A stretch of 64,000 nucleotides of DNA from Patescibacteria group bacterium (GCA_017992195.1 JAGOPC010000003.1:5127-69126), one strand, 5' to 3'; shown: positions 23,028-60,399, counted from the stretch's first letter. Numbers and translations are program-made. The notes: a model not told the origin generated them from the sequence alone.

Positions 23028-23843
23028 TTATACAAAGGCTTTCCCTATCTTTTCTTTCATGGTTTTTGCGTGCTGAGGAGAGTGGATGAGCTTGAGCGTG
23101 CAGGGAGTCTTCATCTTGATCAGCTGATAGAAGAACTCTTTTTTATATCATTCTAGATTCAGGATCGTCTGAAAGAAGAGCGTGAAGTTTTCTGTGATAA
23201 TCTTCGGGAAACTGCATTCGATAATATAGTCGCCGATAATATCGACCATGTAACCTTCCTCAGGAAAGGGTGAGTTGTCGGTGCAGACGGTTGTATAGAG
23301 TTTGTTATTTAAAATTTGTGATCCATATCTATCCAGATAATGAGTATTGCCGATAAGCATATAGGCATGCTCAAGTCAGCGCGCGATCTCCTCCATCGTT
23401 GCTTGCTCTTTTTGCGGAGCGCTGAGCAGATAGTAAGGATGCGATGAGTAGTGGTAGCTCACAGAGCATGGGTATATTTTGACGAGCTGACCGAGAAGAT
23501 CACTACGAATAATATTCAGATCGTGCAGATTGGCCTCAGTCCAGCTTTCCTGCTGGCCGACGGCAAGCTTTGCAATCGGGCTGTCCTGGTTCTCATTGAG
23601 ATGTCTTTGTATCCCATCAACCAGTCCCGCTATGTAGCGACTGAAGATCGAATGGATCTGTAGCTTGCCGTGTGGTCTTATTAGTATCTGGTCGTCGACC
23701 ATGTGTGCCACTATTTTATAAAAATTCGGTAAAGATACCGAAATTCATTTTGTGCAGACCTGTTGGTACAGCTCTTGCACGGACAAATTTTTGTACTTTG
23801 CAACTACGTCAATAATGGCGTAATTCACGCTTGTGTGGAACAT
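23028..23843 (-). CDS. Hypothetical wHTH-like protein, paralogue A
   Basis: ATG at 23843. Pieces joined via TGA at 23748-23750, 23376 and 23148. TAA at 23028-23030. Colinear with paralogue B (shared LPNFYKIV, YNSHPY/YSSHPY, NMEEI/TMEEI, PFPEEGY, IIGDYIIEC, HSP.HAK.MK.KI). Confidence 0.6.
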
Positions 23844-23996: not shown

Positions 23997-24815
23997 CTAA
24001 GAGAAGAACTTTTTGATTTTTTGTTTCATCTTTTTCGCGTGTTCAGGGGAGTGGATTACTTTGATACTGCACGTGTCTTTCATCTTGATAATATGTCCGA
24101 ACATCTGGACGTTGAAAGTATCAAGAGAGTTCACCGTATCAAAGAAGATCTGATAATGCTGGGCCACGCTTTGAGGTAGCGTACATTCGATAATATAATC
24201 TCCGATGATATTGATAAAGTAGCCTTCTTCCGGAAATGGAACATCATCGCTGCACTTTATCGTGTAGCCTTTCATGCTGTAGAGTGTGCTGCCGTACTGG
24301 TCCAGAAAGGTTGTATTTCCAAAGAGAAAGTATGATTTTTTTAGGCCGCTTCCTATCTCTTCCATGTTGGCCTTTTCTTTGTCGGTGATACTGAGAACAT
24401 GATACGGGTGAGAGTTATAGTAGAATCCTTCAGCATCAGGATATTTTTTTATCAGCTGCGTAAGAATATCCATCCAGATAACATCAAGATCGTACAAGCT
24501 TGACGCGCTAAAGGTTTGCTGGTCGCCCGCCTGCAGGGTCTCGACATTGTGTGTGGCGTTTGAAAAATAAGTCTTTTGCACATTCTCTGCGAGTTTGACG
24601 ATGAAGTGAAGATACATCGTGTGGATATGAAGTCTTCCTTTTGTTTTCACAAGTACCTGACTGTCAATCATACGTCCTACTATCTTATAGAAGTTAGGGA
24701 GGGAGACTTTCAGGTTTTTGCCGTTAGTGACGGAGGCATACAACTCCTGCACAGTGATGTCTTTTTGCTCGGCGAGCGCTGCGATAATGGCGTACTCAAT
24801 ACGGATACTAAACAT
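23997..24815 (-). CDS. Hypothetical wHTH-like protein, paralogue B
   Basis: Start placed at MFSIRIEYAIIAAL (24815) by homology with paralogue A; the ORF-track start at 24881 is probably too far upstream. TAG at 23997. Confidence 0.6.
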   Translation of the reverse strand: MFSIRIEYAIIAALAEQKDITVQELYASVTNGKNLKVSLPNFYKIVGRMIDSQVLVKTKGRLHIHTMYLHFIVKLAENVQKTYFSNATHNVETLQAGDQQTFSASSLYDLDVIWMDILTQLIKKYPDAEGFYYNSHPYHVLSITDKEKANMEEIGSGLKKSYFLFGNTTFLDQYGSTLYSMKGYTIKCSDDVPFPEEGYFINIIGDYIIECTLPQSVAQHYQIFFDTVNSLDTFNVQMFGHIIKMKDTCSIKVIHSPEHAKKMKQKIKKFFS

Positions 24816-48617: not shown

Positions 48618-49760
48618 TTACAAGACGAACTGTTTGAAGCACTCGTAGAGGATTCCTAAGGAGAAAACGATGATTATGAGGTATGAGAAAAATGTGTTAT
48701 AGGGCAAAATATGTACTTCAGTCTTGCCGTGTTTTCTGTGTAGAATAAGATTCATGGCACCAACAGTGATGCAGATGAAGCCGGTAAAAACGGCTCACGA
48801 AAAGCCAATGGTGCCAATGAAGTTGGTTTGGAGGTAGATATAAGCGATCAGGGGAAGAAGGGTGACCGTCATTCGCGCGTCGAATGTGTGAAAACGGAAC
48901 GATTGTTTTAATGTGTCGATAAAGTGTTCGCCTATAAGTAGGTGAGGAGAGATGATAGCAAGGATCCCTATGAGTCCGCTGAGTTTCATGAGTCGGCCGG
49001 GGAGAAAATGTGTAAGGCCAGAGAGAGCATCTTCTGAGGTTGCGATGCCTGAAACGCCGACCACCGATCGTCATCGCAGTAATACTAAAGACATACAGAT
49101 GATTCCACCGATGATGATAATATAGGGCATATCTTTTTTCTCTCTGTTGAGTACCTCTTCGAGAACAGGAATAACGGTAACGCTATTGAGTGCGTAGATG
49201 AGTACGCCGTAGGGAAGAAATCGTTGCGCTTTATCGCCGAGCAGAAAGTGTTCGGGCGTTCCGACGCCAAATCCGTAACAGATTAAGAAGACCAGCGCGC
49301 CGATAAAAATTGTCACTACTGTTCTTTGGTATTTTTCTATGCCAAGATTTCACTTATAGAGGATCCGGCTTATGACGGCTGTATATATTGCTGCACCGAT
49401 CATGGGATCTAAGGTAAGATGCGGGGCAAGAAAGGTATTGATAAATGCGCCCACGAGCGACGTATAGGCAAAAATAGCGATGAAAAACTGCATACAGGTG
49501 ATGAAGATCCCTAAGAATCCCAGGCGTTTCGGAAAGAGTTTCTGGATCTGACCGGCAAGGCGCAGATGCGGCGGCATGCTGAGTGAGACCTCCGCCTGGA
49601 GCAGATTCAATATGATCAAAATCGCGCCTATAATCACCGTCCAAATCGTTCACTGTAGTACGCCAGCTTGTGCAAACACATAGGGGACCCCAAAAAGTCC
49701 GGCGCCGATGGTGCCTCCGATAACAGTCGTTAAACCAAGTCGACCTCTTTTTGTTACCAT
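48618..49760 (-). CDS. Amino-acid transporter-family membrane protein
   Basis: ATG at 49760. Pieces 49350..49637, 49071..49316 and 48795..49064 plus a tail share one frame through four TGA codons. N-terminus ...TTVIGGTIGAGLFGVPYVFAQAG is typical of amino-acid permeases. TAA at 48618. Confidence 0.55.
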
Positions 49761-49781: not shown

Positions 49782-52700
49782 TTAATACGACAGTAAGCTG
49801 CGAAGTCTTTCTATTCACATGGGATTCAACTGTCTTTCGATGTTTCCGATCTTCACCGTGTGTTCTCCTGGGTGATCTTTGATAACCTGTGCGATCGACT
49901 GAAACAGTCATGGGTTGTCGGGCAGCGCAAAGTGGAGCGGTCCGCCGATCTCTTCGTTGTTCATGTCGCTTGTTCCAATATTGCTTCATGAGGATTTCTC
50001 ATTATTTCAGCCTGTATCTGTATCTGAATCCTCATCTTCTTCGCTCAGTCCATCCGGGATCTTTTCAGTAAGCTCGATCTTGATCACCTCACCGGTTTCA
50101 GTATCGACAAGTTCGTCTTCGATGTCGGTTCCCATACTCAAAATATTCATTCAAAGTCTTGTCACCTTCACTTCACTTACTGACTCATCATTGTACTTAT
50201 TGGCTTTCTTCGCGTCTTCAACAACTTTCTCCAGAGAGGTCTTGACGATCTTGCTGACTTTAAGGGACTTATTTTTCCATCCTTCTATAATCAAAATATC
50301 AAACTTCTGAATATCCAGGGTCTCCTTCATAAATATTTCTATCTCGTCCGAGATATCTTCCACCGCCATAAAAAATCATTTCTTTTTTGCTCTCTGGATG
50401 TTCTTCACGTAGCAGAGGATTTTCACATTTCCAAATGGTTGCTCTTTATCGTAGTTCTTGAACATGCTGATCAATGAGAACGATCACTTGATGAACGGAT
50501 AGAGACCGTCAAATGGGTGACCTGAGACGAAGGTCTTGAAGACCTCGTATTCAGTCAGCAATCTTTCCATCTTAGAACTCTCTTCTGTTTTGTCCAGAGT
50601 GAGCGCGGGCTTGACCGCAGCCATGGCGAACAGGCTGTTTGCTGAGCTTTCCGCATTCGACATTTTGGTCCGGTCGATGATGCGGGACACATTATGCAAG
50701 ATCGTTTTACGATCCATGAAACCGTTGAATGCTCACGCTTTGGCAAGAGACTCGAGGGTCTTTTTGTTGATGATAGTTTGGCATCTTGTAAGAAAATCTT
50801 CGAGTGAAGTGTATGGTCAGTTTTTGCTTCTTTCGGTTTCGATGAGTTCGCTCACATCAGCACCGACTCCTTTAATACACTGGAAGCCGAGTCTGATAGT
50901 ATCGTCGACCGCGGCCACGTGCGAAAATGATTCGTTCACATGGGGAGGAAGAACCTTGTATCACTGGAGTTTTAATTCGTTAATGAATTTACTGAGTTTC
51001 TCAGTGTCTTCTTCCACAGACCTTAACAGCGCCGCATTAAACTCGATAGGGTAGTTCGCTTTGAGGTACGCTGTCTGATACGAGAGCATTCCATAGGTGA
51101 CTGAATGGGATTTGTTGAACGAGTAGAACGCTGCAGGTTCGATCATCTTCTCGTAGACCCACGTTGAGGTCTCCGCCTTGTACTCTCTGAAGGTAGCAGC
51201 CTTTTCGATGAACTGTCATTTGATCTGTTCGATGACCTCTTTAATTTTCTTTCCGATACCACGTCTGAGATTGTCCGCTTCGGCGAGCGAGAATCCGGCC
51301 ATCGCCTGTACGAGGAACATCAGCTGCTCCTGGTAGACGGCGATACCATACGTCAGTCCCAGGATCGGATCGAGATCCTCTCTGAGTTTTCTTTTTTCAT
51401 CTTCCGCTGTCGCCTCATCGTACTTCGCAACTAATATTTGATAGAGCTCCGGCAGCATATATTCGATCGCCTCCTTGCCGTGCTTTCTGTCGATATATCT
51501 CGGAATGAACTCCATCGGTCCTGGACGGTAGAGCGCACCCATCGCTATGATATCGTTCACATTATTCGGTTTCAGTTTTACCAAGAAATTTCTAATACCA
51601 TCTCCTTCAAACTGAAATACTCCTGATGTATCTCCCTTCTGTAAAACTCTTTCAAAAGTGTTCTTGTCGTCGAGCGCTGGTTCAAACACCATCGTCGCAA
51701 AATAGTCGGCAAACAGTTTTGGCAATTTCTTTCCTGACTTGGCATATTTTGCTCTCACGATCTTCATCGTGTTCTTGATGAGCGTTAGCGTCCTAAGTCC
51801 CAGAAAGTCCATCTTCAGAAGACCGATATCTTCGAGATCGTGTCATTCATATTGCGTCACCAGCTCCTTATGCACTTCTTCAGCGCCGGCTTTCCCTTGC
51901 GGCTTAGGCGGATGCTGCACAGGAGTATAGTGTGTAATTACTTCAGGAGCGATGATGATTCCACACGCATGGACGCCAGTTCCTCTCACTGTTCCTTCAA
52001 GCTTGATCGCCTCATCAAATGTCTTTTTGAGGATCGGATCGTTCTCATAAAGGTTGCGTAAATCTTCAGTCGCCTTCATAGACTCTTCGATACTTTTTTC
52101 GTTGATGAGCGAAGCGATAAAGTTCGACCTGTCGAACGGTATACCCATGGTTCTCGCAACGTCCTTGAATGCAGCACGCGCAGCCATGGTCATATAAGTC
52201 CCTACGTGGGCAACTTTATCTTTTCCATATTTCAGCGATACATATTCAACTACTTTATCTCTCTGTACATCTTCAAAGTCGACGTCGATATCGGGCATCG
52301 ATACACGGGCAGGATTCAAGAATCTTTCAAATAGCAGGCCGTATGGAAACGGATCCACATCCGTAATGCGCACAAAATACGCCATCAGCGAACCAGCAAC
52401 CGAACCACGTCCTGGCCCCACCGCGATATTGTTCGCTTTCGACCGGTTGATGAAATCCTGTACGATCAGGAAGTAGGTATTATAACCCATCTCTTTCACC
52501 ACCTTCAACTCGTACTCCAGACGCTCAATATAGTCAGCCACAGAGATCTCACCGTGCATCACATTCTTGTTATTTTCAATCAATTTCTTCTTGGTATCTG
52601 TATATGTTAATGTCGTGATCTCCTTCAACTCTGCAGGCGTCGTCTCCGTCAACTTTTTCGTCAATTGCCCCTGATCCGTAATCTGCACCATCCTCAAAAT

Positions 52701-52787
52701 ATCCTCGTCGGACCATCTATCCAGATCGAGTCTTCTCTTCATTCCTGTATACGACAAATAGCGCAGCTCAAACTCAAAAATATCCAT
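49782..52787 (-). CDS. dnaE: DNA polymerase III alpha subunit, C-terminal fragment (palm/thumb/fingers, HhH, OB; about 1001 aa)
   Basis: Starts MDIFEFELRYLSYTGMKRRL. An in-frame TAA at 52818-52820 lies upstream. Pieces 51843..52787, 51216..51812, 50961..51146, 50484..50717 and 50151..50369 plus a tail share one frame. AVGPGRGSVAGS, SMPDIDVDF, FDFLGLRTLT-type block, NKSHS. TAA at 49782. Confidence 0.9.
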
Positions 52788-52820
52788 TCAACGTTTCCAA
52801 ATTACATTAAACAAAAATTA

Positions 52821-52853
52821 TGACGGACTTAACTAGGATTTATTGACGGACTT
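52821..52853 (-). repeat. Two perfect 10-bp direct repeats TGACGGACTT (23-bp period) upstream of dnaE-C
   Basis: Copies at 52821-52830 and 52844-52853, 34-66 nt upstream of the dnaE-C ATG. Confidence 0.5.
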
Positions 52854-52907
52854 TGTTTTGGTTTGGCCCCTTTATAAAAAAATGATAATGGAAGTCTATG
52901 GATAAAT

Positions 52908-52932
52908 AAAAAAATCTCCCGAAAAGAGAGAT
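52908..52932 (-). terminator. Intrinsic terminator of gene 52952..53734
   Basis: On the minus transcript: stem AUCUCUC/GGGAGAU, loop UUUUC, then U7. Confidence 0.65.
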
Positions 52933-52951
52933 TTGTTATGAGAGAGGTTGG

Positions 52952-53734
52952 TTATTTCGTTTGTAGTTCACTTTCTTTAATATCTATCTCGCTGTAGTCA
53001 TGAGTAGATTGTACTCTCTGTCCGTTAGTCGCTGATCGTGTTGCTCGTGTGCTCAATCCATTGTTTATTTTAAGATACAGAGATCCGTCTGAAGAAATCC
53101 CTCATCTTGAATAGAGAAGAAGGTTAATCTGCTGTTGTTCATTAGTAGGAAGTGTTTCAATGTGATCTATATATACATATGCTCTTTTTCAGCTCTCTTT
53201 GAGTATCTTTCCCATGACGCGTACAGCGACATCTATTTCAAATTTCTTAACAGTCTTTTTTTGATCATCATTCTCATACTTTTGAAGTAACTGATCAAAC
53301 ATCGCATAATAATGAGGTAGTATATCTCCTGATATCGTTTTAAGTTGAGCTTTCTGGTCGTCATCAAGCATGCTTGATTGCGCAATAACTTTCCTCACTA
53401 TCTCATCAGCGTTCTCAGGTTTCTGTCTTCCTAGAAGTTGCTCCATAAGGAAGAACATGATTTCTTTCTCTCCTTTGATAGAACAGTCAGCGTAGACGAT
53501 AGGCGATATATCTGTTAATGCGCCTTGAAGTTGTTGCTGATAATTATTCACCATCACTTTAGAGATTGTTTTTTCGAGGATATCTAAATTGCCTGGCTGT
53601 CGAGGCACTTTGCTATTATCAATGCTTCCTCCGGTATACTTGCCGTATTCATATCTTGGGCCAATCATCGTACACGTCTGATAGGGCAGTACGAGTCATA
53701 CGTGAATTTCAGCGGCTGAGGGTTTATTGTTCAT
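52952..53734 (-). CDS. Hypothetical protein (260 aa)
   Basis: ATG at 53734. ORF 53189..53668 is extended on both sides through TGA at 53696, 53189 and 53102. TAA at 52952-52954. Confidence 0.45.
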
Positions 53735-53841
53735 AAGAAAGGAGGGAATAATATAAGGCAATCAATAAAGGATTTTATACTTATTCCAGATGAGAAGTCA
53801 ATTAAGTATTGTGGTTCCGGAGAATGGCTAGTGTCATCATC

Positions 53842-53869
53842 TTGAAATCACATCTCCGTTTCCTATAGT
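53842..53869 (+). promoter_or_regulatory. Predicted promoter TTGAAA-N16-TATAGT upstream of gyrB
   Basis: -35 at 53842-53847, -10 at 53864-53869, ATG at 53910. Confidence 0.5.
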
Positions 53870-53909
53870 GGGGCATAAACGACTTTATTTTTGAAATAGA
53901 ATACGACAT

Positions 53910-55835
53910 ATGGCAGACAAAAAACCGCAGGAGTATGACGCATCCCAGATTAAGGTTCTCGAAGGTTTGGAGCCGGTGAGACAGAGACCTGGTATGTATA
54001 TCGGTTCAACGGATATCAGAGGATTGCATCACTTAGTATATGAAATTGTTGATAATGGTGTTGACGAGGCTCTCGGTGGACACTGTAAAAATATTTCTCT
54101 TGTCCTCAAAAAAAATGGATGGGTCGTCGTAAAAGATGACGGACGTGGTATCCCAGTCGGTATTGTAGGAAAGACAGGGAAGTCAGGTGTTGAAACTATT
54201 CTTACAGTATTGCATGCCGGAGGTAAGTTTGAAAAAGGTGCATATAAAGTTTCGGGAGGTCTTCACGGTGTGGGTGCTTCAGTAGTGAACGCGCTTTCAA
54301 AAGATCTCAAGGCAACAGTCTATAAAGACGGGCAAGAACATGTTATCACCTTCAAACGCGGTGTTGCAACGGGACCACTTGCAGTCGTTGGTAAGACAGA
54401 CGTTCGTGGAACAACTATCGAGTTTCTTGCTGATGATACGATTTTCGAGACAACAAAATACGTCTATGAAACCCTCGCAACGAGAATGAAATACGCAGCG
54501 TATCTTACGCCAGGTGTGACATTCACTATTACTGAAGAAGCAACTGGTAGAGCAGAAAGATTCTACTATGAAGGCGGTATCAAGACATGGCTGAGAAATC
54601 TTGTTGATGATCAAAAGCCACTTTCAGCACTTCACTACATCAACAAAGAAGGAAATGACGCTCTCGTAGAGATCTCATTCCAGTATGTGAACTCAAGCAA
54701 CGATAATGTCTTATCGTTCGTTAACAATATTAATACGACAGACGCTGGTACGCACGTTGTTGGTTTCAAGAATGCGCTCGTCAGTGTGATCAATGAGATT
54801 GCAAAAGCGAAAGGAAAGATCGACGGTAAGATCGGTGAGTTCCAGCCTTCTGATATTATCGAAGGTCTCTATGCGATCGTGACAGTGAAGATCCCTGAGC
54901 CTCAGTTTGAAGGACAGACAAAGGGTAGACTTGGTAACAGTTATGTAAGAAAAGAAGTTGAAGATATCGTGACCGCCTACCTCAAGAAAAATTTTGCAGA
55001 GAACGAAGAGGAGTTCAATTCGATCCTTGAAAGAATTACTCTTTCAGCGAGAGCAAGACTTGCTGCTAAGTTCGCGCGTGAAACGGTTCTGAGAAAAAAT
55101 GTACTTGCCGGAGGAGTTCTCCCAGGTAAACTTTCTGACTGTTCAAGACGTGGAAAGAACGGTACGGAGATGTATATTGTCGAGGGAGATTCAGCGGGTG
55201 GTACAGCGAAACAAGGTCGTGATAGTGAATTCCAGGCGATCCTTCCACTCAAAGGTAAGATCCTCAATACTGAGCAGGCGATGGTACAGCGTATCATGGC
55301 AAACGATGAAGTGAAGGCGCTTATCACTGCTATCGGAGCTGGACTTAAGGATATGTACGATGAGGAAAAATTACGTTACGATAAGATCGTGATCATGACG
55401 GATGCCGACGTTGACGGTGCGCATATTAGAACATTGCTCTTAACATTCTTCTTCAGATATATGAGACCGCTCATCGAGAATGGTCACCTGTTCATCGCTG
55501 TGTCTCCTCTCTATAAGATAAAGCAAGGAAAGAAAGAGGAGTATATTTATCCGATGGATGTTGAAGGTGGTGAGCTTACACATGCGCTGAAGAAGGCGGG
55601 TTTCAAGACAGAAGAAAAATATGAGATCCAACGTTATAAGGGTCTTGGAGAAATGAATGCAGAACAGCTCTGGGATACGACAATGGATCCTGCTAAGAGA
55701 AAAATGCTTCAGGTTACTGTAGACGATGCAGAGGAGGCTGATAAATTATTCAGAATTCTTATGGGCGAAGATGTGATGAGTAGAAAGCATTTCATCCTCA
55801 CACATGCGAAGAATGTAAAAGATCTCGATATCTAA
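53910..55835 (+). CDS. gyrB: DNA gyrase subunit B
   Basis: 641-aa uninterrupted ORF. YDASQIKVLEGLEPVRQRPGMYIGST, ..GGLHGVGASVVNALS.., EGDSAGG, PLKGKILN, DADVDGAHI. I found no in-frame TGA, CGA or CGG. Confidence 0.96.
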   Translation: MADKKPQEYDASQIKVLEGLEPVRQRPGMYIGSTDIRGLHHLVYEIVDNGVDEALGGHCKNISLVLKKNGWVVVKDDGRGIPVGIVGKTGKSGVETILTVLHAGGKFEKGAYKVSGGLHGVGASVVNALSKDLKATVYKDGQEHVITFKRGVATGPLAVVGKTDVRGTTIEFLADDTIFETTKYVYETLATRMKYAAYLTPGVTFTITEEATGRAERFYYEGGIKTWLRNLVDDQKPLSALHYINKEGNDALVEISFQYVNSSNDNVLSFVNNINTTDAGTHVVGFKNALVSVINEIAKAKGKIDGKIGEFQPSDIIEGLYAIVTVKIPEPQFEGQTKGRLGNSYVRKEVEDIVTAYLKKNFAENEEEFNSILERITLSARARLAAKFARETVLRKNVLAGGVLPGKLSDCSRRGKNGTEMYIVEGDSAGGTAKQGRDSEFQAILPLKGKILNTEQAMVQRIMANDEVKALITAIGAGLKDMYDEEKLRYDKIVIMTDADVDGAHIRTLLLTFFFRYMRPLIENGHLFIAVSPLYKIKQGKKEEYIYPMDVEGGELTHALKKAGFKTEEKYEIQRYKGLGEMNAEQLWDTTMDPAKRKMLQVTVDDAEEADKLFRILMGEDVMSRKHFILTHAKNVKDLDI

Positions 55836-55862
55836 AACCATATTTAACTTTCCCACTATTCG

Positions 55863-56441
55863 ATGTTTCATATATTCAAAGGGCAGTTAGAGGTACACGG
55901 AGGCAGAAACTTCCTTACCAATGAGCTTTTTGGTATAGACGTTCAATATAATGGGACCCCTGCCTCAATGGCGGGGAAAAACGAAAAAGGAAAAGGAACC
56001 TGGTTCCTTTTTCCGTATATGGATGAAAATAATAAGACCATCCACTACTTTGCATTTGATACGATCGAGCAGAAGCAGGTCTTCGAGCAGATGATGAAGA
56101 TCTCTGGGATCGGACCAAAGACGGCATTTGCTATTGCCGCGATCGACAAAAAAGAGCTTCAGAATGCAATTGATACCTTTGATGTGAAGGCTGTACAGAA
56201 GATTCCTGGTGTCGGACCGAAAACTGCCAAGAGACTCCTTGTTGAGCTTAAGGCGACGCTTCGTACGTCTGACATCAAAAAACTTGATATTGATGATAAG
56301 CTCTTCAAAAGCATCGTCGCTACCATGAAAAACATGGGTCGGAATGCTAATACCGTCAGAAAGAAACTTTCAGAGTGTCCTATCCAGTTGGACAAAGAGC
56401 ATGTGCAGGAGATCGTCAAGTGGCTGATCGGGCAGGTCTAA
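55863..56441 (+). CDS. ruvA: Holliday junction DNA helicase RuvA
   Basis: OB-like N-terminus. HhH pairs ISGIGPKTAFAI and IPGVGPKTAKRL. 192 aa. Confidence 0.85.
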   Translation: MFHIFKGQLEVHGGRNFLTNELFGIDVQYNGTPASMAGKNEKGKGTWFLFPYMDENNKTIHYFAFDTIEQKQVFEQMMKISGIGPKTAFAIAAIDKKELQNAIDTFDVKAVQKIPGVGPKTAKRLLVELKATLRTSDIKKLDIDDKLFKSIVATMKNMGRNANTVRKKLSECPIQLDKEHVQEIVKWLIGQV

Positions 56442-56477
56442 GCTACTATCCATATCATACATTAATTAATTATATAC

Positions 56478-56508
56478 AAAAAACACGCTCGGAAGAGCGT
56501 GTTTTTTA
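56478..56508. terminator. Bidirectional terminator
   Basis: A5, perfect 8-bp stem ACACGCTC/GAGCGTGT with loop GGAA, then T6. Confidence 0.75.
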
Positions 56509-56527
56509 TCTATTCGTAAGCGGATGA

Positions 56528-56668
56528 TTACTCACCAGCTTCTTCAGTAGTTTCTTCAGCGGCAACGTCAGCGTCAGTCGCGTCAGTACCTGTAGTTTCT
56601 TCAGCGTTAACTTCAGTTGCAGAAACCTCTGCATTCTCGTCAACTACTACCTCTTCTGTATTATTCAT
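56528..56668 (-). CDS. Tiny hyper-acidic ORF (46 aa), speculative
   Basis: MNNTEEVVVDENAEVSATEVNAEETTGTDATDADVAAEETTEEAGE. Same strand as dnaE-N and downstream of it; it ends just before the terminator. Confidence 0.3.
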   Translation of the reverse strand: MNNTEEVVVDENAEVSATEVNAEETTGTDATDADVAAEETTEEAGE

Positions 56669-56776
56669 GGTAGACGGGGGTAAGGGGATAAAAAAGCTAC
56701 TACCCAGTAGTAACAGGGAAAGGGTACAAAAACTCTCCTTTAAGTCAAGGGAATTGTCCGGAGCCGCAAAAGTAGA

Positions 56777-56908
56777 CTATGCCCGGCTTTTATTGTCCTC
56801 ATTTTCCTCGCTGTTGTCCTCTTCGTCTGCATACATTTGTTCTACCTCGTCGGTACCTGGTTGCAACGGATGAAAACCATTTCTTTCGAGTTCTTTATTT
56901 GTGTACAT
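56777..56908 (-). CDS. Tiny acidic ORF (43 aa), speculative
   Basis: MYTNKELERNGFHPLQPGTDEVEQMYADEEDNSEENEDNKS.A. Same strand, between dnaE-N and the other acidic ORF. Confidence 0.25.
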   Translation of the reverse strand: MYTNKELERNGFHPLQPGTDEVEQMYADEEDNSEENEDNKSRA

Positions 56909-57001
56909 TTTGAGCCATTCTTACAAATCTAAAACACATCATACTGTAAACTCATGCTCTATTGATACTCAAGATATACTACAATTTCAACAAAAGGTAC
57001 A

Positions 57002-57922
57002 TTATTTTATCTGCTGGAAGGTCTCATAGAGCTGGGTGATCTCTTCAGGGCTTTCGTAGGCTGGGAAGAGAAGCTGATGTAATGGGATCTGAACGTCGAT
57101 CATATCAATCAGTTGCTGATTGTTGCTTATCCATTCATCGATCATTTTCCCCTCGTAGCCATTCTTTTCAAGTGTTTTCATGACCTCTTCCTCACTCATA
57201 ATATGCCACGCGCCTTCTTTCTTCTTTCTGCCATGCTCGTAGTATTGCTTGCCGTCTTTGATACAGGTCGCAATATCAAAGGCGTCTTTGTCATCCGGCG
57301 CTATATAGTGAAAGTTGTTGTCGACAAGACATGGGATGGATAATGTTTGAGAAAGAGAGAGAATACAGCTGTCGATTTTTTTGATGAGGGGAAGTTCAAT
57401 GTGGGATTGTGCGGTGATCTCAAAGAAAAATTGGCCGGTGGGGAAGTAGGTCGCATACATTCACATGAGTTCTTCGACTTTTTTAGGGTTTTCGCCCTGT
57501 TGGATGAGTCGCGAAAGGTAGCTGCAGTCGCCTCCCACTATGCCGATGAGGTTCTCCGATCTGTCTTTGATCTTTTCCAATGGGAGCGAGGCGATCGTCG
57601 TGGTCGAGAGCGTATGAGCTTCTGAAACTATCTCCAATAAGGCACGGTATCAATCGTAGTTCTTCGCGAGAAGGGTCATATAAAACCCCCTGTCTGTTTT
57701 GCCATCCTTGACGACGTGGGTGCAGAGATCGACGCCAATCAAAGGTTTCAAGCCTTCTTTCTTTGCTATTTCGTACTGCTGTATGCTGCCGTACATACCA
57801 TTGTAGTCGCAGATCGGCATAGTTTCCTGACCAAGTGATTTGATCTTTTTGGCAATTGCCTTCAGATTGCCGATCGCCTGTAAGAGCGAATAATGACTAT
57901 GTCAGTGGATGTGGTTGAACAT
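57002..57922 (-). CDS. dnaE: DNA polymerase III alpha subunit, N-terminal fragment (PHP domain; 306 aa)
   Basis: MFNHIH-G-HSHYSLLQAIG (TGA at 57902-57904), CDYNGMYG, LIGVDL, MTLLAKNYD-G-YRALL, ...NNFHYIAPDD.... Ends at a genuine TAA at 57002-57004. An in-frame TAG lies upstream of the ATG. Confidence 0.88.
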
Positions 57923-58083: not shown

Positions 58084-60399
58084 ATGAGAACTTCTAAGAT
58101 AGCCTTGATAGGCTCTATTGTGCTGATGGCATGCGGCCTTGGTTTTGCGCATGCCGACTGACGAAATCTTCCGGGTGTGCCGATCGTGACGCGTGCTCAG
58201 CGGTGAGCTGATGAGACGATGAAATATGCGGATCATTACGAATATGCGAAGCTGCAGGAGAGCTGGGAAGAGGCGAGAAAATATATAACTGCAGCTCAAA
58301 AGGAGCAACAGGAAGCCGAATCTGAGAAAAGTAGCATAGCACGCGACTATGCGTTGAAGAATTTTCCGAGTGATATTTTGCTTGACACGACCGTTGCTAC
58401 TGAAGACGGTAAGGCACTTCGGTGGAAACACGAGTATCAGCATCAGAAGACAAAAATTATCGTCCATCACACAGTAAATGATATGGATAAATTTCTGACG
58501 GAAAATAAGGTGGAGTGACTGCTGCAGTCGATCTATAAGCTCCACGCATTCGGTAATGGTCGGTGAGATGTCGGCTACAATTTCATTATCTCTCCCGGTG
58601 GCATTATTTACGAAGGAAGAAGTGGTGGTGAATGAGTTGTGGGTGCACACGCAACCCGGAATAATCAGCCAAGTATCGGTATAGCATTAATTTGAAATTT
58701 TAATAATGATAAGCCGACTGATGCGCAGATAAAGGCACTTACAAATCTCATTACAGCGTTAGCGGCAAAGTATAATATTGATCCGGAAAGTAAGGCTGAT
58801 TGGCACAAAAAAACTGCTGTCTATCCCTATGTCTCAACATTTCAAAACTATACAGTGGTTGGTCATAGAGATGTCGGTGCTACGGCCTGTCCGGGTGAAA
58901 ATCTCTATAAACTCTTGCCTGCGATCCGTGATCGTGTCGACATGAATCTGAAGTCGGGTTCATATATAGCGACAGCGAATGCCTCAACTCCTTCAAAAAA
59001 TTCCTCGAACCAGTCAACGAGCAACATGTCTTCAAGTTCTCCCTCTTTGCCTGTAACAAAACCAAATAACATTATCACGCTACCGACGGTCTACAATACG
59101 GTGAAGGATAGTTATGCAATCCGCGTGCGTACTAGTGATATAACTACGGCGCTACCGAGATGCGAGATCATCAAGTGAGAGGTCGCTCTGGCGGGGTGTG
59201 TGTACCGTTCAGGAGAGCTTATTATGTGAATTAGAAAAAAGAACAGCGTTGTCGTGCCATGAACCGTGCGAATTAAAGTAACCTCTCGTGGTAAGCAGAT
59301 TACCTATGCGATGGAGGTTTCATGGGATGGAGCAGCGAGAAGTCAAGGATCGACAACTTCGACTAAGCCTGCCGCCCTCAGTTCTCCATCGACTATTGGT
59401 ACAACGCAAGGTTTACCTTCTCTGCCTGTTGGTAATAATCCTGTACTTGAGGATCTCAAAAGGAAATTTTCCATCACTATCCCGGGTAACACTATCAAGA
59501 TAGCATTGCCGACAAGTAGTTCTGATGCGCCGATGCTCATGAAGAAAAACATGAGTGTGCTACTGTATAATGCTTCTATGCAATCGTCATCGCGGACGAT
59601 CGCCTGTAATGGAGGATGTTCTCTTTCTAATGCGCCGTTCTCTCGTGTGACAGTCAGCTTTTCAGACGGGTTGTTAAAGGTTCAGAAAAATGGTTTGGTC
59701 TGGAATGAATCTATGCTGACATTGATCGCAAGCTCAGGTTCAACTTTTACTATCACTGATGCGTTAACGCAAAAACAGTATGGCGTCTACAGAGGAAAAC
59801 TCGACATTCTGACGCAGCAGATCAAGAAGATTGATGGCAACTATGTGACCCAATACGCTCTGGTGAATACGCTGCCACTCGAGCAATATTTAGCAGGTAT
59901 TGCTGAGGCTTCTGATAGTCAGCCGATAGAGAAGACGAAAGTGCTCGCATTGCTGACGAAAGCCTACGCGCTTTACTATGCAGGAGGAAGTAGTTCACAC
60001 CCTTCTATCCCGAAGTGAGTTGTCTATAACTCGATCGATGATCCTCGTTTCTTCCAAAAATATGTAGGTGTCACGCGAGAGCAGAGATCAAAGAACCGAC
60101 CCGTTGCACTTGAAGCGACTAAAGACAAGTATGTCGTCTATAATGGTATTCTTCCTATATTGCCTTATTTCCACTGTTCTCCTGGATTTACTCGGTCTGC
60201 TCGTGAAAAACGGGGTTGGAACGATACTCCGTATCTACAATCTATCCTCGATGAAACCGCTTCTGCGTGTACCAATTTTGAATGACATGGTGTAGGCTTG
60301 AGCGGTGAGGGCGCCAACAAAAAAGCAGAAAAAGGTGAAAGCGCAGAGGCGATAATTGCCTACTACTATCCCGGGACAGTAGTGCAGACGATTAGATAG
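58084..60399 (+). CDS. Secreted/lipid-anchored fusion protein: N-acetylmuramoyl-L-alanine amidase (Amidase_2/PGRP) plus SpoIID-type lytic transglycosylase domain
   Basis: Signal sequence MRTSKIALIGSIVLMACG. Amidase_2 region: RAQ(CGG)GA, IIVHHT, GNG(CGG)GDVGYNFIISPGGIIYEGRSGG, VGHRDVGATACPG. A Ser/Thr-rich linker follows. SpoIID region: EQYLAGIAEA, YVVYNG..LPYFHCSPGFT.SA.EK.GWNDTPYLQS, GHGVGLS. Pieces 58219.., 58855.. and 59266..60018 plus a tail share one frame through about 11 TGA codons. TAG at 60397-60399. Confidence 0.75.

What the first reader, a model, noticed from the sequence alone, without database searches (positions are those of the whole stretch)
49782..57922. dnaE is split, without an intein, into a PHP-domain gene and a polymerase-core gene 4.2 kb apart
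dnaE-N (57922->57002, 306 aa) encodes the PHP domain and ends at a true TAA after ...LLFPAYESPEEITQLYETFQQIK. dnaE-C (52787->49782, about 1001 aa) begins MDIFEFELRYLSYTGMKRRL. That is the next conserved block of DnaE (compare E. coli ...[27 protein letters not shown]...), so no segment of the protein is missing.
The two parts cannot be one ORF. An in-frame TAA lies at 52818-52820 upstream of dnaE-C. Between the halves lie two terminators, a hypothetical gene (52952..53734), gyrB and ruvA on the opposite strand, and two tiny acidic ORFs.
There are no intein blocks: no Cys/Ser-initiated insertion after the N-fragment, and no ...HN-C/S/T junction at the start of the C-fragment. This differs from the cyanobacterial split-intein dnaE and resembles the intein-less split genes of Nanoarchaeota. 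It implies either a replicative polymerase assembled from two polypeptides or a decoupled PHP (exonuclease/pyrophosphatase) subunit.
Basis: partly seen in the sequence, partly recalled or inferred. Interest (0 to 1): 0.8.

Follow-up and report, generated by a model that had tools for sequence, protein, structure and literature searches.

The report
Replicative polymerase split into two genes
In this bacterium, and in the whole group of stop-codon-recoded relatives, the main DNA-copying enzyme is encoded by two separate genes with no protein-splicing element. The enzyme is a single protein in every other bacterium examined here and in the literature read here, so it is probably built here from two proteins.

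Summary
dnaE-N (57922->57002, 306 aa) is a PHP domain only. dnaE-C (52787->49782, 1001 aa) is palm, thumb, fingers and HhH. Each reads as one ORF only if TGA is a sense codon: all 15 internal stops are TGA, and conserved columns show UGA = Gly (code 25).

The pieces tile the nearest unsplit DnaE exactly: N 1-293 matches residues 1-290 and C 5-899 matches residues 296-1181. Nothing is missing and there is no room for an intein.

The split is not an assembly artefact. About 50 species-representative genomes of the UGA-recoded CPR clade (SR1/Absconditabacteria type) have a 293-315-codon PHP gene ending at TAA/TAG. None of the 120 closest core-protein clusters carries PHP. In the closed RAAC1_SR1_1 chromosome the halves lie 197 kb apart on opposite strands. 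Other CPR relatives (120 of 120) are unsplit.

Both halves are under purifying selection. The PHP subunit has lost metal ligands 4, 6 and 7 but keeps the Lys-Pro that contacts the proofreading subunit epsilon in E. coli. The most likely reading is a non-catalytic scaffold subunit that assembles non-covalently with the core.

Overlapping synteny suggests the window's compact layout is close to the ancestral fission locus. I found no published description. Verdict: a new variant of a known kind, of moderate to high interest.

The parts
57002..57922 (-). dnaE-N: stand-alone PHP subunit of Pol III alpha, 306 aa, with 3 in-frame TGA read as Gly and a TAA stop
   Evidence: Pfam PHP, E 2.3e-24. Aligns to E. 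coli alpha residues 6-281 and Taq alpha 7-302. The AlphaFold2 model has pLDDT 85.6, and Foldseek gives TM 0.75-0.79 to Pol III alpha PHP domains. There are 33 stand-alone homologs, most of them 295-327 aa.
49782..52787 (-). dnaE-C: polymerase core subunit (palm, thumb, fingers, HhH, divergent OB/C-terminal region), 1001 aa, with 12 in-frame TGA read as Gly and a TAA stop
   Evidence: Pfam DNA_pol3_alpha, DNA_pol3_finger and HHH_6. Aligns to Taq alpha residues 383-1074, E 4.5e-148. Catalytic motifs PDIDVDF and GLLKMDFLGL are present. Residues 5-899 align to residues 296-1181 of the unsplit relative P0216.
52788..52951 (-). Spacer upstream of dnaE-C, holding in-frame TAA (52820-52818) and TAG (52835-52833) and a hairpin plus T-run (52934-52912)
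   Evidence: Stop list; terminator-like site with a 9-bp stem; sequence read directly.
52952..53734 (-). Hypothetical gene of 260 aa between gyrB and dnaE-C; present in L001/L005 but not detected in L004 or L087
   Evidence: ORF call with TGA as sense. Only a sub-threshold ORC-CDC6-like hit, E 0.004. Synteny table.
53910..55835 (+). gyrB on the opposite strand, part of the block lying between the two dnaE halves
   Evidence: 641-aa ORF. GyrB Pfam domains on the orthologs in L001 and L087. The gyrB-CORE adjacency recurs in L087 and L088.
55863..56441 (+). ruvA-like HhH protein on the opposite strand, part of the intervening block
   Evidence: Pfam HHH_5, E 2.6e-13. The syntenic ruvA-gyrB block occurs in L001, L004, L005 and L087.
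56528..56908 (-). Two small acidic ORFs (56777-56908, 43 aa; 56528-56668, 46 aa) with a hairpin plus T-run between them (56714-56696), downstream of dnaE-N
   Evidence: ORF list; no Pfam hit; terminator-like site; sequence. Whether they are real genes is untested.
58084..60399 (+). Amidase_2/SpoIID-like gene divergent from dnaE-N; the conserved neighbour of the PHP gene across the clade
   Evidence: Pfam domains on the orthologs. The amidase(-)/PHP(+) adjacency is seen in more than 30 loci.
48618..49760 (-). Trp/Tyr-permease-family gene immediately downstream of dnaE-C; the conserved neighbour of the core gene
   Evidence: Pfam Trp_Tyr_perm, E 6.1e-16. The CORE-permease adjacency occurs in L001, L004, L005, L087 and L088.

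Best explanation
The window comes from a UGA=Gly recoded CPR bacterium of the SR1/Absconditabacteria type. Its only detectable C-family replicase is encoded by two independent genes.

- A 306-aa PHP subunit.
- A 1001-aa core subunit carrying palm, thumb, fingers and HhH.

The break falls exactly at the PHP/palm domain boundary.

Shown:
- The split is real and intein-free, and no segment is missing.
- It is shared by the whole recoded clade.
- Both genes are under purifying selection.
- The polymerase catalytic residues are intact.
- The PHP metal site is degenerate.

Inferred:
- The two polypeptides assemble non-covalently to rebuild the canonical alpha fold. The PHP subunit would act as a structural scaffold, and probably as the docking platform for a separate proofreading exonuclease, not as an enzyme.
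- The two unusually conserved cut ends (LFPxY...LY at the N tail; MDxxEFELRY at the C head) form part of the retained interface.
- The fission happened once, in the ancestor of the recoded clade, by a rearrangement that placed an inverted ruvA-gyrB block inside dnaE. The window's compact layout is close to that ancestral locus, and later rearrangements scattered the halves in most lineages.
For: Anatomy:
- N is PHP only and C is the core domains.
- N maps to Taq alpha 7-302 and the C core to Taq alpha from residue 383.
- Against the nearest unsplit DnaE (P0216, standard code), N 1-293 matches residues 1-290 and C 5-899 matches residues 296-1181.
- The divergent linker is also colinear with that relative.

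Clade-wide distribution:
- 33 N homologs at 34-99% identity, most of them 295-327 aa, all without a polymerase-core domain.
- The best 120 core-protein homolog clusters all lack PF02811.
- In an exhaustive search of 1.84 billion cluster representatives, about 60 clusters at E <= 1e-30 are nearly all 300-320 aa; full-length DnaE appears only below about 120 bits.
- In about 50 species-representative loci the PHP ORF is 293-315 codons and ends at TAA/TAG. No core gene lies within the flanks held (up to 10 kb each side), except in the window's two nearest relatives.
- All 26 Planctomycetota/Flavobacteriales control loci continue directly from PHP into the polymerase core.
- In the closed RAAC1_SR1_1 genome, N lies at 578.7-579.6 kb (-) and C at 378.5-381.3 kb (+).
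- All 120 relatives of P0216 from other CPR lineages are unsplit.

Function retained:
- pN is 0.17-0.22 for N and 0.11-0.13 for C, with pS saturated at 0.77-0.95. gyrB has pN 0.08-0.09.
- PDIDVDF and the KMDFLGL Asp are present.
- 95 of 121 C proteins start at the same Met with near-invariant EFELRY.
- Both cut ends are more conserved than their surroundings.

PHP status:
- Ligand 4 is H->Y in 44/53, ligand 6 is H->N in 39/53, ligand 7 is C/H->G in 50/53, and ligand 9 is often F. The full-length controls keep all nine positions in most sequences.
- The Lys-Pro that contacts epsilon in E. coli is kept in 46/53 and 50/53 (positions taken from PMC3666897).
- The AlphaFold2 model is confident, and Foldseek gives TM 0.75-0.79 to Pol III PHP domains. 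These include the E. coli PHP domain crystallised on its own as an epsilon chimera, 4GX8/4GX9.

Literature:
- PHP integrity modulates the stability and activity of E. coli Pol III, and variant PHP domains correlate with a separate epsilon subunit (PMC3666897).

Origin:
- Three overlapping synteny blocks point to one compact ancestral locus:
  - alaS-hyp687-amidase-PHP in at least 25 loci.
  - alaS-hyp687-ruvA-gyrB-CORE-permease in L087 and L088.
  - amidase-PHP-ruvA-gyrB-CORE-permease in the window clade.
Against: - Physical association of the two proteins is not shown.
- Whether these genomes encode a DnaQ-type epsilon subunit or a second C-family polymerase could not be checked, because whole genomes were not searchable.
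- The PHP subunit evolves faster than the core: 34-45% identity against 48-64% across the clade. This would also fit a loosened or changed role.
- The ancestral-locus inference rests on synteny overlap without a rooted species tree. Secondary re-association in the window clade is not formally excluded.
- Submitters' taxonomic labels on the MAGs (SR1, Absconditabacterales, 'Peribacteria', Gracilibacteria) are inconsistent, so the exact phylogenetic boundary of the split is not fixed.
Confidence: 0.75

Rival explanations
1. The halves are functionally decoupled. The PHP protein has become an independent enzyme (a phosphoesterase, exonuclease or pyrophosphatase acting in trans or on other substrates), and the core polymerase works without any PHP domain.
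For: - In most genomes the genes are unlinked and not co-transcribed.
- The PHP protein diverges faster than the core.
- Five to six of the nine ligand positions still hold metal-compatible residues: H, H, E, E and N, plus H at position 9 in 18 of 53.
- Stand-alone PHP enzymes exist, such as RNase AM, which appears in the fold search.
Against: - Ligands 4, 6 and 7 are lost across the clade. The pattern matches the 'variant', inactive PHP domains described for E. coli.
- The fold is much closer to Pol III PHP domains (TM 0.75-0.79) than to stand-alone PHP enzymes (TM 0.40-0.45).
- The DnaE-specific C-terminal LFPxY segment, the C-head EFELRY and the epsilon-contact Lys-Pro are all conserved.
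Confidence: 0.15
2. Artefact or decay. The split reflects a misassembly or an annotation error, or the pieces are pseudogene remnants while an intact dnaE or polC elsewhere replicates the genome.
For: - The NCBI record of this MAG was annotated with code 11 and shows only fragments of 58 and 152 aa.
- Whole genomes could not be scanned for a second polymerase.
Against: - The same break point occurs in about 50 species representatives assembled by different groups, and in a closed chromosome where the halves are 197 kb apart.
- There are no TAA or TAG interruptions, the catalytic motifs are intact, and pN is well below pS.
- The fragmentation in the record is fully explained by UGA = Gly.
- None of the 120 closest core-protein clusters has PHP.
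- No full-length relative scores above about 120 bits in an exhaustive search.
Confidence: 0.03
3. The two products are joined after translation, or at the RNA level, into a single chain by a cryptic or atypical split intein or by trans-splicing.
For: Split-intein dnaE genes exist in cyanobacteria (PMC3919608).
Against: - No intein or Hint family was found at E <= 0.01.
- Only 13 N-tail and 4 C-head residues lie outside the alignment to an unsplit DnaE, against a 5-residue gap in that protein.
- The C head is itself the conserved DnaE helix and has no HN-Cys/Ser/Thr junction.
- The genes lie on opposite strands, 197 kb apart, in RAAC1.
Confidence: 0.02

Closest known systems
Canonical DnaE1-type Pol III alpha subunit (E. 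coli, Thermus aquaticus, M. tuberculosis)
   Same: The domains, their order and the catalytic residues are the same. The sequence is colinear from PHP through HhH. The PHP fold matches at TM 0.75-0.79. The degenerate 'variant' PHP metal site resembles that of E. coli.
   Different: PHP and the polymerase core are separate polypeptides encoded by separate genes that are usually unlinked. The literature describes PHP-Palm-Thumb-Fingers as lying within a single polypeptide in all C-family polymerases (PMC3666897).
Cyanobacterial split dnaE with a naturally split intein (Synechocystis/Nostoc type)
   Same: dnaE is encoded by two separated genes on the chromosome.
   Different: In cyanobacteria, intein halves flank the break and trans-splicing regenerates a single alpha chain. 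From my own knowledge, that break lies inside the polymerase part and not at the PHP boundary. Here there is no intein and no room for one, and the break is at the PHP/palm boundary.
Intein-less split protein genes of Nanoarchaeum equitans and other reduced genomes
   Same: An essential protein is cut at a domain boundary into two unlinked genes in a small-genome episymbiont lineage, presumably with non-covalent reassembly.
   Different: It is a different domain of life and a different protein. This is an analogy only, recalled from my own knowledge and not tested here.
Modular distribution of accessory domains in C-family polymerases (epsilon as a separate subunit in DnaE1, inserted in PolC, fused N-terminally in some Bacteroidetes DnaE1)
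   Same: It shows that accessory modules of the replicase can be placed in cis or in trans in different lineages (PMC3919608).
   Different: Until now the variable module was the DEDD exonuclease. PHP itself was reported as invariably in cis.
Engineered isolated E. coli alpha PHP domain (alpha-epsilon chimera, PDB 4GX8/4GX9)
   Same: A PHP domain of about 270-300 aa exists as an autonomous folded unit. The model of the window's N protein superposes on it with TM 0.74-0.77 normalised to either chain.
   Different: That is a laboratory construct. Here the stand-alone form is natural, and it carries an extra conserved C-terminal helix at residues 293-303.

Membership tests
C-family replicative DNA polymerase, DnaE type (Pol III alpha) | Pol-beta-like palm with three catalytic Asp (PDxDxDF plus the Asp in KxDFLGL) | tested here: met
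   PDIDVDF at C residues 165-171 and GLLKMDFLGL at C residues 322-331, aligned to Taq D618.
C-family replicative DNA polymerase, DnaE type (Pol III alpha) | Palm/thumb, fingers and (HhH)2 domains | tested here: met
   PF07733 E 5.6e-89, PF17657 E 2.1e-48, PF14579 E 4.2e-25. Aligns to Taq alpha residues 383-1074.
C-family replicative DNA polymerase, DnaE type (Pol III alpha) | An N-terminal PHP domain is present | tested here: met
   It is present, but as a separate gene product: PF02811 E 2.3e-24, and the fold matches at TM 0.75-0.79.
C-family replicative DNA polymerase, DnaE type (Pol III alpha) | PHP-Palm-Thumb-Fingers organised within a single polypeptide | tested here: not met
   N ends at TAA. 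C has its own ATG with in-frame TAA and TAG upstream, and opposite-strand genes lie between the two. The same holds in about 50 genomes.
C-family replicative DNA polymerase, DnaE type (Pol III alpha) | Internal beta-clamp-binding motif (QL[SD]LF-like), OB fold and C-terminal domain | tested here: inconclusive
   No strict motif match. 'NSLFA' sits at the position aligned to Taq 'GLFA'. The alignment reaches residue 1181 of 1254 in P0216, but PF01336 is not detected, unlike in the unsplit relatives.
Split-intein dnaE (cyanobacterial type) | An N-intein at the end of the N gene, a C-intein at the start of the C gene, and a +1 Cys/Ser/Thr nucleophile | tested here: not met
   No intein or Hint Pfam hit. 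Only 13 plus 4 residues are unaligned at the junction. The C head, MDIFEFELRY, is itself DnaE sequence.
Catalytically competent PHP exonuclease (Taq / M. tuberculosis DnaE1 type) | Nine metal-coordinating residues (H, H, D/H, H, E, H, C/H, D/N, H) | tested here: not met
   The window protein has H, H, Q, Y, D, Y, G, N, H at these positions. The clade consensus is H, H, E, Y, E, N, G, N, F/H. Positions 4, 6 and 7 are lost throughout (positions).
Genetic code 25 (SR1/Gracilibacteria, UGA = Gly) | In-frame UGA falls at conserved Gly positions, and only TAA/TAG act as stops | tested here: met
   Four of the four strongly conserved columns that are Gly hold TGA, and none is Trp. There are 170 in-frame TGA in 19,662 codons, and the ORFs end in TAA (49) or TAG (15). 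No tRNA gene lies in the window, so the suppressor tRNA-Gly(UCA) was not seen.
Stand-alone PHP phosphoesterases (RNase AM/YcdX-like) | Closest fold and sequence relatives are stand-alone PHP enzymes with a complete metal site | tested here: not met
   Foldseek gives TM 0.40-0.45 to RNase AM and putative phosphoesterases, against 0.75-0.79 to Pol III alpha. All sequence hits in the PDB are Pol III alpha or PolC.

The most novel reading that the evidence does not exclude
Freed from the polymerase chain, the PHP protein may have become a separately regulated, dissociable subunit. [quoted passage not shown] That would be a replication control or fidelity switch unique to this recoded episymbiont clade. 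The conserved extra C-terminal helix of the PHP protein and the invariant EFELRY head of the core would act as a reversible docking pair.
Probability: 0.15. Interest if true: 0.8.

Novelty: new variant of a known kind. Interest (0 to 1): 0.62.

Why it matters
Published surveys describe C-family replicases as always carrying PHP, palm, thumb and fingers in one chain, and the role of PHP in enzymes that do not use it for proofreading is still debated. A whole bacterial clade that supplies PHP in trans is a natural experiment on that question.

- It shows that covalent linkage is dispensable.
- It offers a system in which PHP's contribution to polymerase stability, activity and proofreader docking can be titrated biochemically.
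- It gives a discrete genomic marker for the UGA-recoded SR1/Gracilibacteria lineage.

There is also a practical point. The genes are annotated as 'PHP domain-containing protein' and a PHP-less 'DNA polymerase III subunit alpha'. Under code 11 they appear only as fragments, so pipelines may score dnaE as partial or missing in these genomes.

Tried and rejected
1. Overlap or duplication at the junction. A profile built from 36 full-length DnaE sequences aligned some C heads to profile positions 259-275, which overlaps the N coverage. Those stretches have posterior values of only 3-4 across a divergent linker, and direct BLASTP against the nearest unsplit relative shows clean abutment. I rejected this as evidence. 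The conserved N-tail 'I/VxxLY' helix could still be a remnant or a new docking element; that is untested.

2. dN/dS. Synonymous sites are saturated, so no ratio can be given. Only pN against pS is reported.

3. A candidate proofreader. An RNase_H_2-superfamily gene abuts the core gene in L090, but it has no homolog in the window or in any other locus. I dropped it.

I reran it with the 99%-identical database copy P0001.

5. P0188, a 653-aa 'PHP' protein. It is a PHP subunit read through into a downstream membrane or secreted-looking ORF, not a PHP-core fusion.

6. Promoter scan. The counts equal the shuffled expectation (17 against 16.6), so it is uninformative.

7. Literature. Six searches for any description of an intein-less dnaE split, a stand-alone PHP or a PHP-less DnaE in SR1, Gracilibacteria or CPR found nothing relevant. 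The library lacks most subscription-journal papers, so this is absence of evidence only.

8. Complex modelling was not possible.

Full report
**Observation.**
All 15 internal stops are TGA: 3 in the N piece and 12 in the C piece. Both pieces end at TAA.

With TGA read as sense:
- dnaE-N is a 306-codon ORF (57922->57002) ending ...LLFPAYESPEEITQLYETFQQIK.
- dnaE-C is a 1001-codon ORF (52787->49782) starting MDIFEFELRYLSYTGMKRRL.
- In-frame TAA (52820-52818) and TAG (52835) lie upstream of the C start.

The whole window becomes gene-dense when TGA is sense. There are 170 in-frame TGA in 19,662 codons, and all 64 retained ORFs end in TAA or TAG.

At the TGA columns that are strongly conserved in 36 non-recoded full-length DnaE proteins, the residue is Gly in 36/36, 35/36, 30/36 and 25/36 sequences, and never Trp. 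The organism therefore uses UGA = Gly (code 25). No tRNA gene lies in the window.

**Domain content.**
- The N piece is a PHP domain only (PF02811, E 2.3e-24).
- The C piece carries DNA_pol3_alpha (E 5.6e-89), DNA_pol3_finger (E 2.1e-48) and HHH_6 (E 4.2e-25).
- Against solved structures, N aligns to E. coli alpha residues 6-281 and Taq alpha 7-302.
- The C core aligns from its residue 86 to Taq residue 383 onward, at E 4.5e-148.
- The catalytic motifs PDIDVDF and GLLKMDFLGL are intact.

**What lies between the halves.**
The 4,215 bp between them hold:
- a hypothetical gene at 52952-53734 (-);
- gyrB at 53910-55835 (+);
- a ruvA-like gene at 55863-56441 (+);
- two small acidic ORFs on the minus strand;
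- hairpin plus T-run sites at 52934-52912 and 56714-56696.

The total count of terminator-like sites in the region is not above the shuffled expectation.

**The junction.**
The nearest unsplit relative found is P0216. It is a 1,254-aa DnaE from a 1.6-Mb contig of a standard-code MAG labelled Gracilibacteria, with no in-frame TGA.

- N residues 1-293 align to its residues 1-290.
- C residues 5-899 align to its residues 296-1181.
- Only five residues of the unsplit protein fall between the two alignments. They are covered by 13 N-tail and 4 C-head residues.
- The poorly conserved linker after the break is also colinear. Window 'SDEDILRMVQITDQGQLTKKLTETTPAELKEIT' matches P0216 'SEADLPILVNKADSGGLGKKLGDTSPEELHEFT'.

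So nothing is missing and nothing large is inserted. No intein or Hint family is detected, and there is no room for one. An apparent overlap seen in profile alignments was low-confidence and I rejected it.

**Is it an artefact? No.**
- The N piece has 33 database homologs down to 34% identity. Most are 295-327 aa and none carries a polymerase-core domain; several are labelled Absconditabacteria.
- The best 120 homolog clusters of the C piece (47-82% identity, 894-1100 aa) all lack PF02811. They include the protein from the closed SR1 genome RAAC1_SR1_1.
- An exhaustive HMMER search of 1.84 billion cluster representatives was run with P0001, a 99%-identical database copy of the N piece. About 60 clusters at E <= 1e-30 are almost all 300-320 aa and match end to end. 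Full-length DnaE of 1,150-1,500 aa appears only below about 120 bits.
- A scan of species-representative genomes returned 80 loci. In about 50 recoded loci the PHP ORF is 293-315 codons, ends at TAA/TAG 0-14 codons after the match, and contains 0-22 in-frame TGA.
- No core homolog lies within the flanks held (up to 10 kb each side), except in the window's two closest relatives: JAUIDC01 (core 4.6 kb downstream) and OZ246420.1 (core 4.05 kb downstream).
- All 26 Planctomycetota/Flavobacteriales control loci from the same scan continue directly from PHP into the polymerase core.
- In the closed RAAC1_SR1_1 chromosome, the PHP gene is at about 578.7-579.6 kb (-) and the core gene at about 378.5-381.3 kb (+). 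They are 197 kb apart on opposite strands.
- In MAG JBBQVK01 the two genes lie on different large contigs.
- All 120 closest relatives of the unsplit P0216 carry PHP and core in one chain. Their labels include Gracilibacteria, Peregrinibacteria, Parcubacteria, Moranbacteria and Falkowbacteria.

The split therefore tracks the UGA-recoded clade and not CPR bacteria in general. Submitters' labels are inconsistent. Many recoded loci are labelled 'Peribacteria', so I do not fix the exact taxonomic boundary.

**Are both halves functional?**
Between the window and its two nearest relatives, synonymous sites are saturated (pS 0.77-0.95). Nonsynonymous differences stay low: pN is 0.17-0.22 for N and 0.11-0.13 for C, compared with 0.08-0.09 for gyrB.

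The ends created by the split are unusually conserved:
- The N family has invariant L285, F286, P287 and Y289 and a conserved '...LY' tail.
- 95 of 121 C proteins start at the same Met with near-invariant EFELRY. This matches the canonical 'eeYLRelceeGLkkRy' helix position by position.
- The mean top-residue frequency is 0.72 for N residues 281-299, against 0.64 for the family overall.
- It is 0.74 for C residues 1-16, against 0.47-0.52 for the adjacent linker.

An AlphaFold2 model of the N protein is confident (pLDDT 85.6, pTM 0.83) and has a terminal helix at residues 293-303. Foldseek matches it to the PHP domains of Taq, E. coli and M. tuberculosis Pol III alpha at TM 0.75-0.79. The same holds for the isolated E. 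coli PHP domain of the alpha-epsilon chimera 4GX8/4GX9. Stand-alone PHP enzymes match only at TM 0.40-0.45.

**Is the PHP subunit an enzyme? Probably not.**
I used the nine metal-ligand positions tabulated by Barros et al. (PMC3666897).
- The window protein has H, H, Q, Y, D, Y, G, N, H at these positions.
- Across 53 distinct clade members, ligand 4 is Y (44), ligand 6 is N (39), ligand 7 is G (50), and ligand 9 is F (21) or H (18).
- In the 24 full-length controls each of the nine positions holds a canonical residue in nearly all sequences.

This is the 'variant PHP' pattern. That paper links it to a separate epsilon proofreader and to a structural role for PHP in polymerase stability and activity. 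The Lys-Pro that contacts epsilon in E. coli (PMC3919608) is retained in 46/53 and 50/53 sequences.

**Most likely mechanism.**
Shown:
- There are two genes and two polypeptides.
- The polymerase active site is intact.
- The PHP metal site is degenerate.
- Both genes are under selection, across the whole clade.

Inferred:
- The PHP subunit binds the core non-covalently and restores the canonical alpha architecture.
- It serves as a scaffold and probably as a docking site for a trans-acting proofreader.
- The conserved N tail and C head, which are consecutive in the ancestral chain, sit in the interface.

I put this at about 0.75. The main rival, at about 0.15, is functional decoupling: an independent PHP enzyme and a PHP-less polymerase. 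Artefact or decay (about 0.03) and post-translational joining (about 0.02) are essentially excluded.

**Origin.**
Marker-protein tblastn over all loci shows three overlapping synteny blocks:
- alaS(-)-hyp687(-)-amidase(-)-PHP(+) in at least 25 distant members.
- alaS(-)-hyp687(-)-small ORF-ruvA(-)...gyrB(-)-CORE(+)-permease...gyrA in two intermediate lineages (L087, L088).
- holB-radical SAM-amidase(-)-PHP(+)-ruvA(-)-gyrB(-)-CORE(+)-permease in the window clade.

The pairwise overlaps are most simply explained by an ancestral order of alaS-hyp687-amidase-PHP-ruvA-gyrB-CORE-permease. On that reading, the window's layout is close to the original fission locus: both halves on one strand, 4.2 kb apart, with an inverted ruvA-gyrB block between them. 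The halves were then dispersed later, and L084, L089 and L090 are further rearranged. This is an inference made without a rooted tree.

**Comparison with known systems.**
The enzyme is a DnaE-type Pol III alpha in every tested respect except one defining feature, the single polypeptide. [quoted passage not shown] Timinskas et al. surveyed about 2,000 genomes and report split dnaE only with inteins in cyanobacteria, or as frameshift artefacts.

- It is not a split-intein dnaE.
- It resembles the intein-less split genes of Nanoarchaeum only by analogy (my own knowledge).
- The nearest conceptual precedent within the family is the variable cis or trans placement of the DEDD exonuclease.

Six literature searches found no description of this split. 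The library is incomplete. The sequences are public under routine names.

**Verdict.**
This is a new variant of a known kind: a natural, clade-wide, intein-free two-subunit form of the bacterial replicative polymerase catalytic subunit. Interest is about 0.6. A replication specialist would find it surprising, and it makes the long-debated non-catalytic role of PHP directly testable. The biochemistry is still inferred, and the underlying sequences are already in databases.

Noticed in passing
window 57002-57922 and the whole window: The matching NCBI MAG record ('Patescibacteria group bacterium', locus tags KBC03_02275 and KBC03_02280, 79,104-bp contig) was annotated with code 11. The PHP gene therefore appears there as 152-aa and 58-aa 'hypothetical proteins'. 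Every gene in this record that contains TGA is likely fragmented in the same way.
   Followed up: partly
window 49782-50150 (dnaE-C residues about 880-960): The C-terminal part of the core subunit has a long acidic, low-complexity insertion (...TDIEDELVDTETGEV...SEEDEDSDTDTGG...). It falls in columns that are gaps in 22-33 of 36 full-length DnaE sequences. Its function is unknown.
   Followed up: no
L086 5105-7066 (JBPLRL010000027.1): In one relative the PHP ORF has no TAA or TAG after the usual '...LYDKIKDKLVISKK' end. It runs on for about 350 more codons into a sequence that starts like a signal peptide or transmembrane segment. The ORF holds 43 in-frame TGA. It could be a gene fusion, a lost stop codon or a sequencing error.
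   Followed up: partly
L002, L009, L010, L012, L014-L016, L018, L019 and others; window 58084-60399: The PHP gene keeps a divergent Amidase_2/SpoIID-like neighbour across the whole clade. In most members alaS and a gene of about 690 aa with unknown function lie beyond it. This is a deeply conserved gene order for such rearranged genomes.
   Followed up: yes
L090 9029-9973: A 314-aa RNase_H_2-superfamily (PF13482) gene ends 28 nt before the core polymerase gene in one lineage. This raised the idea of a lineage-specific proofreader, but no homolog is present in the window or in any other fetched locus.
   Followed up: yes
window 57002-57043 (N residues 293-306); alignment A1 columns 311-330: The PHP subunits carry a conserved C-terminal helix ('E[DE][IV]xxLYxx[YF]k', predicted helix 293-303). 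It has no aligned counterpart in the unsplit relative. It might be a docking element or a remnant of the duplicated junction helix.
   Followed up: partly
window 52952-53734: The 260-aa hypothetical gene between gyrB and dnaE-C has only a sub-threshold ORC-CDC6-like Pfam hit (E 0.004, 16 bits against a cut-off of 27). It is present in one close relative (L001/L005) but not in L004 or L087.
   Followed up: no
window 23028-23843 and 23997-24815: Two adjacent minus-strand genes of 271 and 272 aa have visibly similar N- and C-termini (MFHTSVNYAIIDVVAKY... and MFSIRIEYAIIAALAEQ...; ...KEKIGKAFV and ...KQKIKKFFS). This looks like a tandem duplication. Their function was not examined.
   Followed up: no
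one search hit list compared hit list: Unsplit CPR DnaE proteins almost all carry a detectable OB-fold hit (PF01336). None of the 120 split-clade core proteins does. The OB domain may therefore be divergent in the split clade.
   Followed up: no
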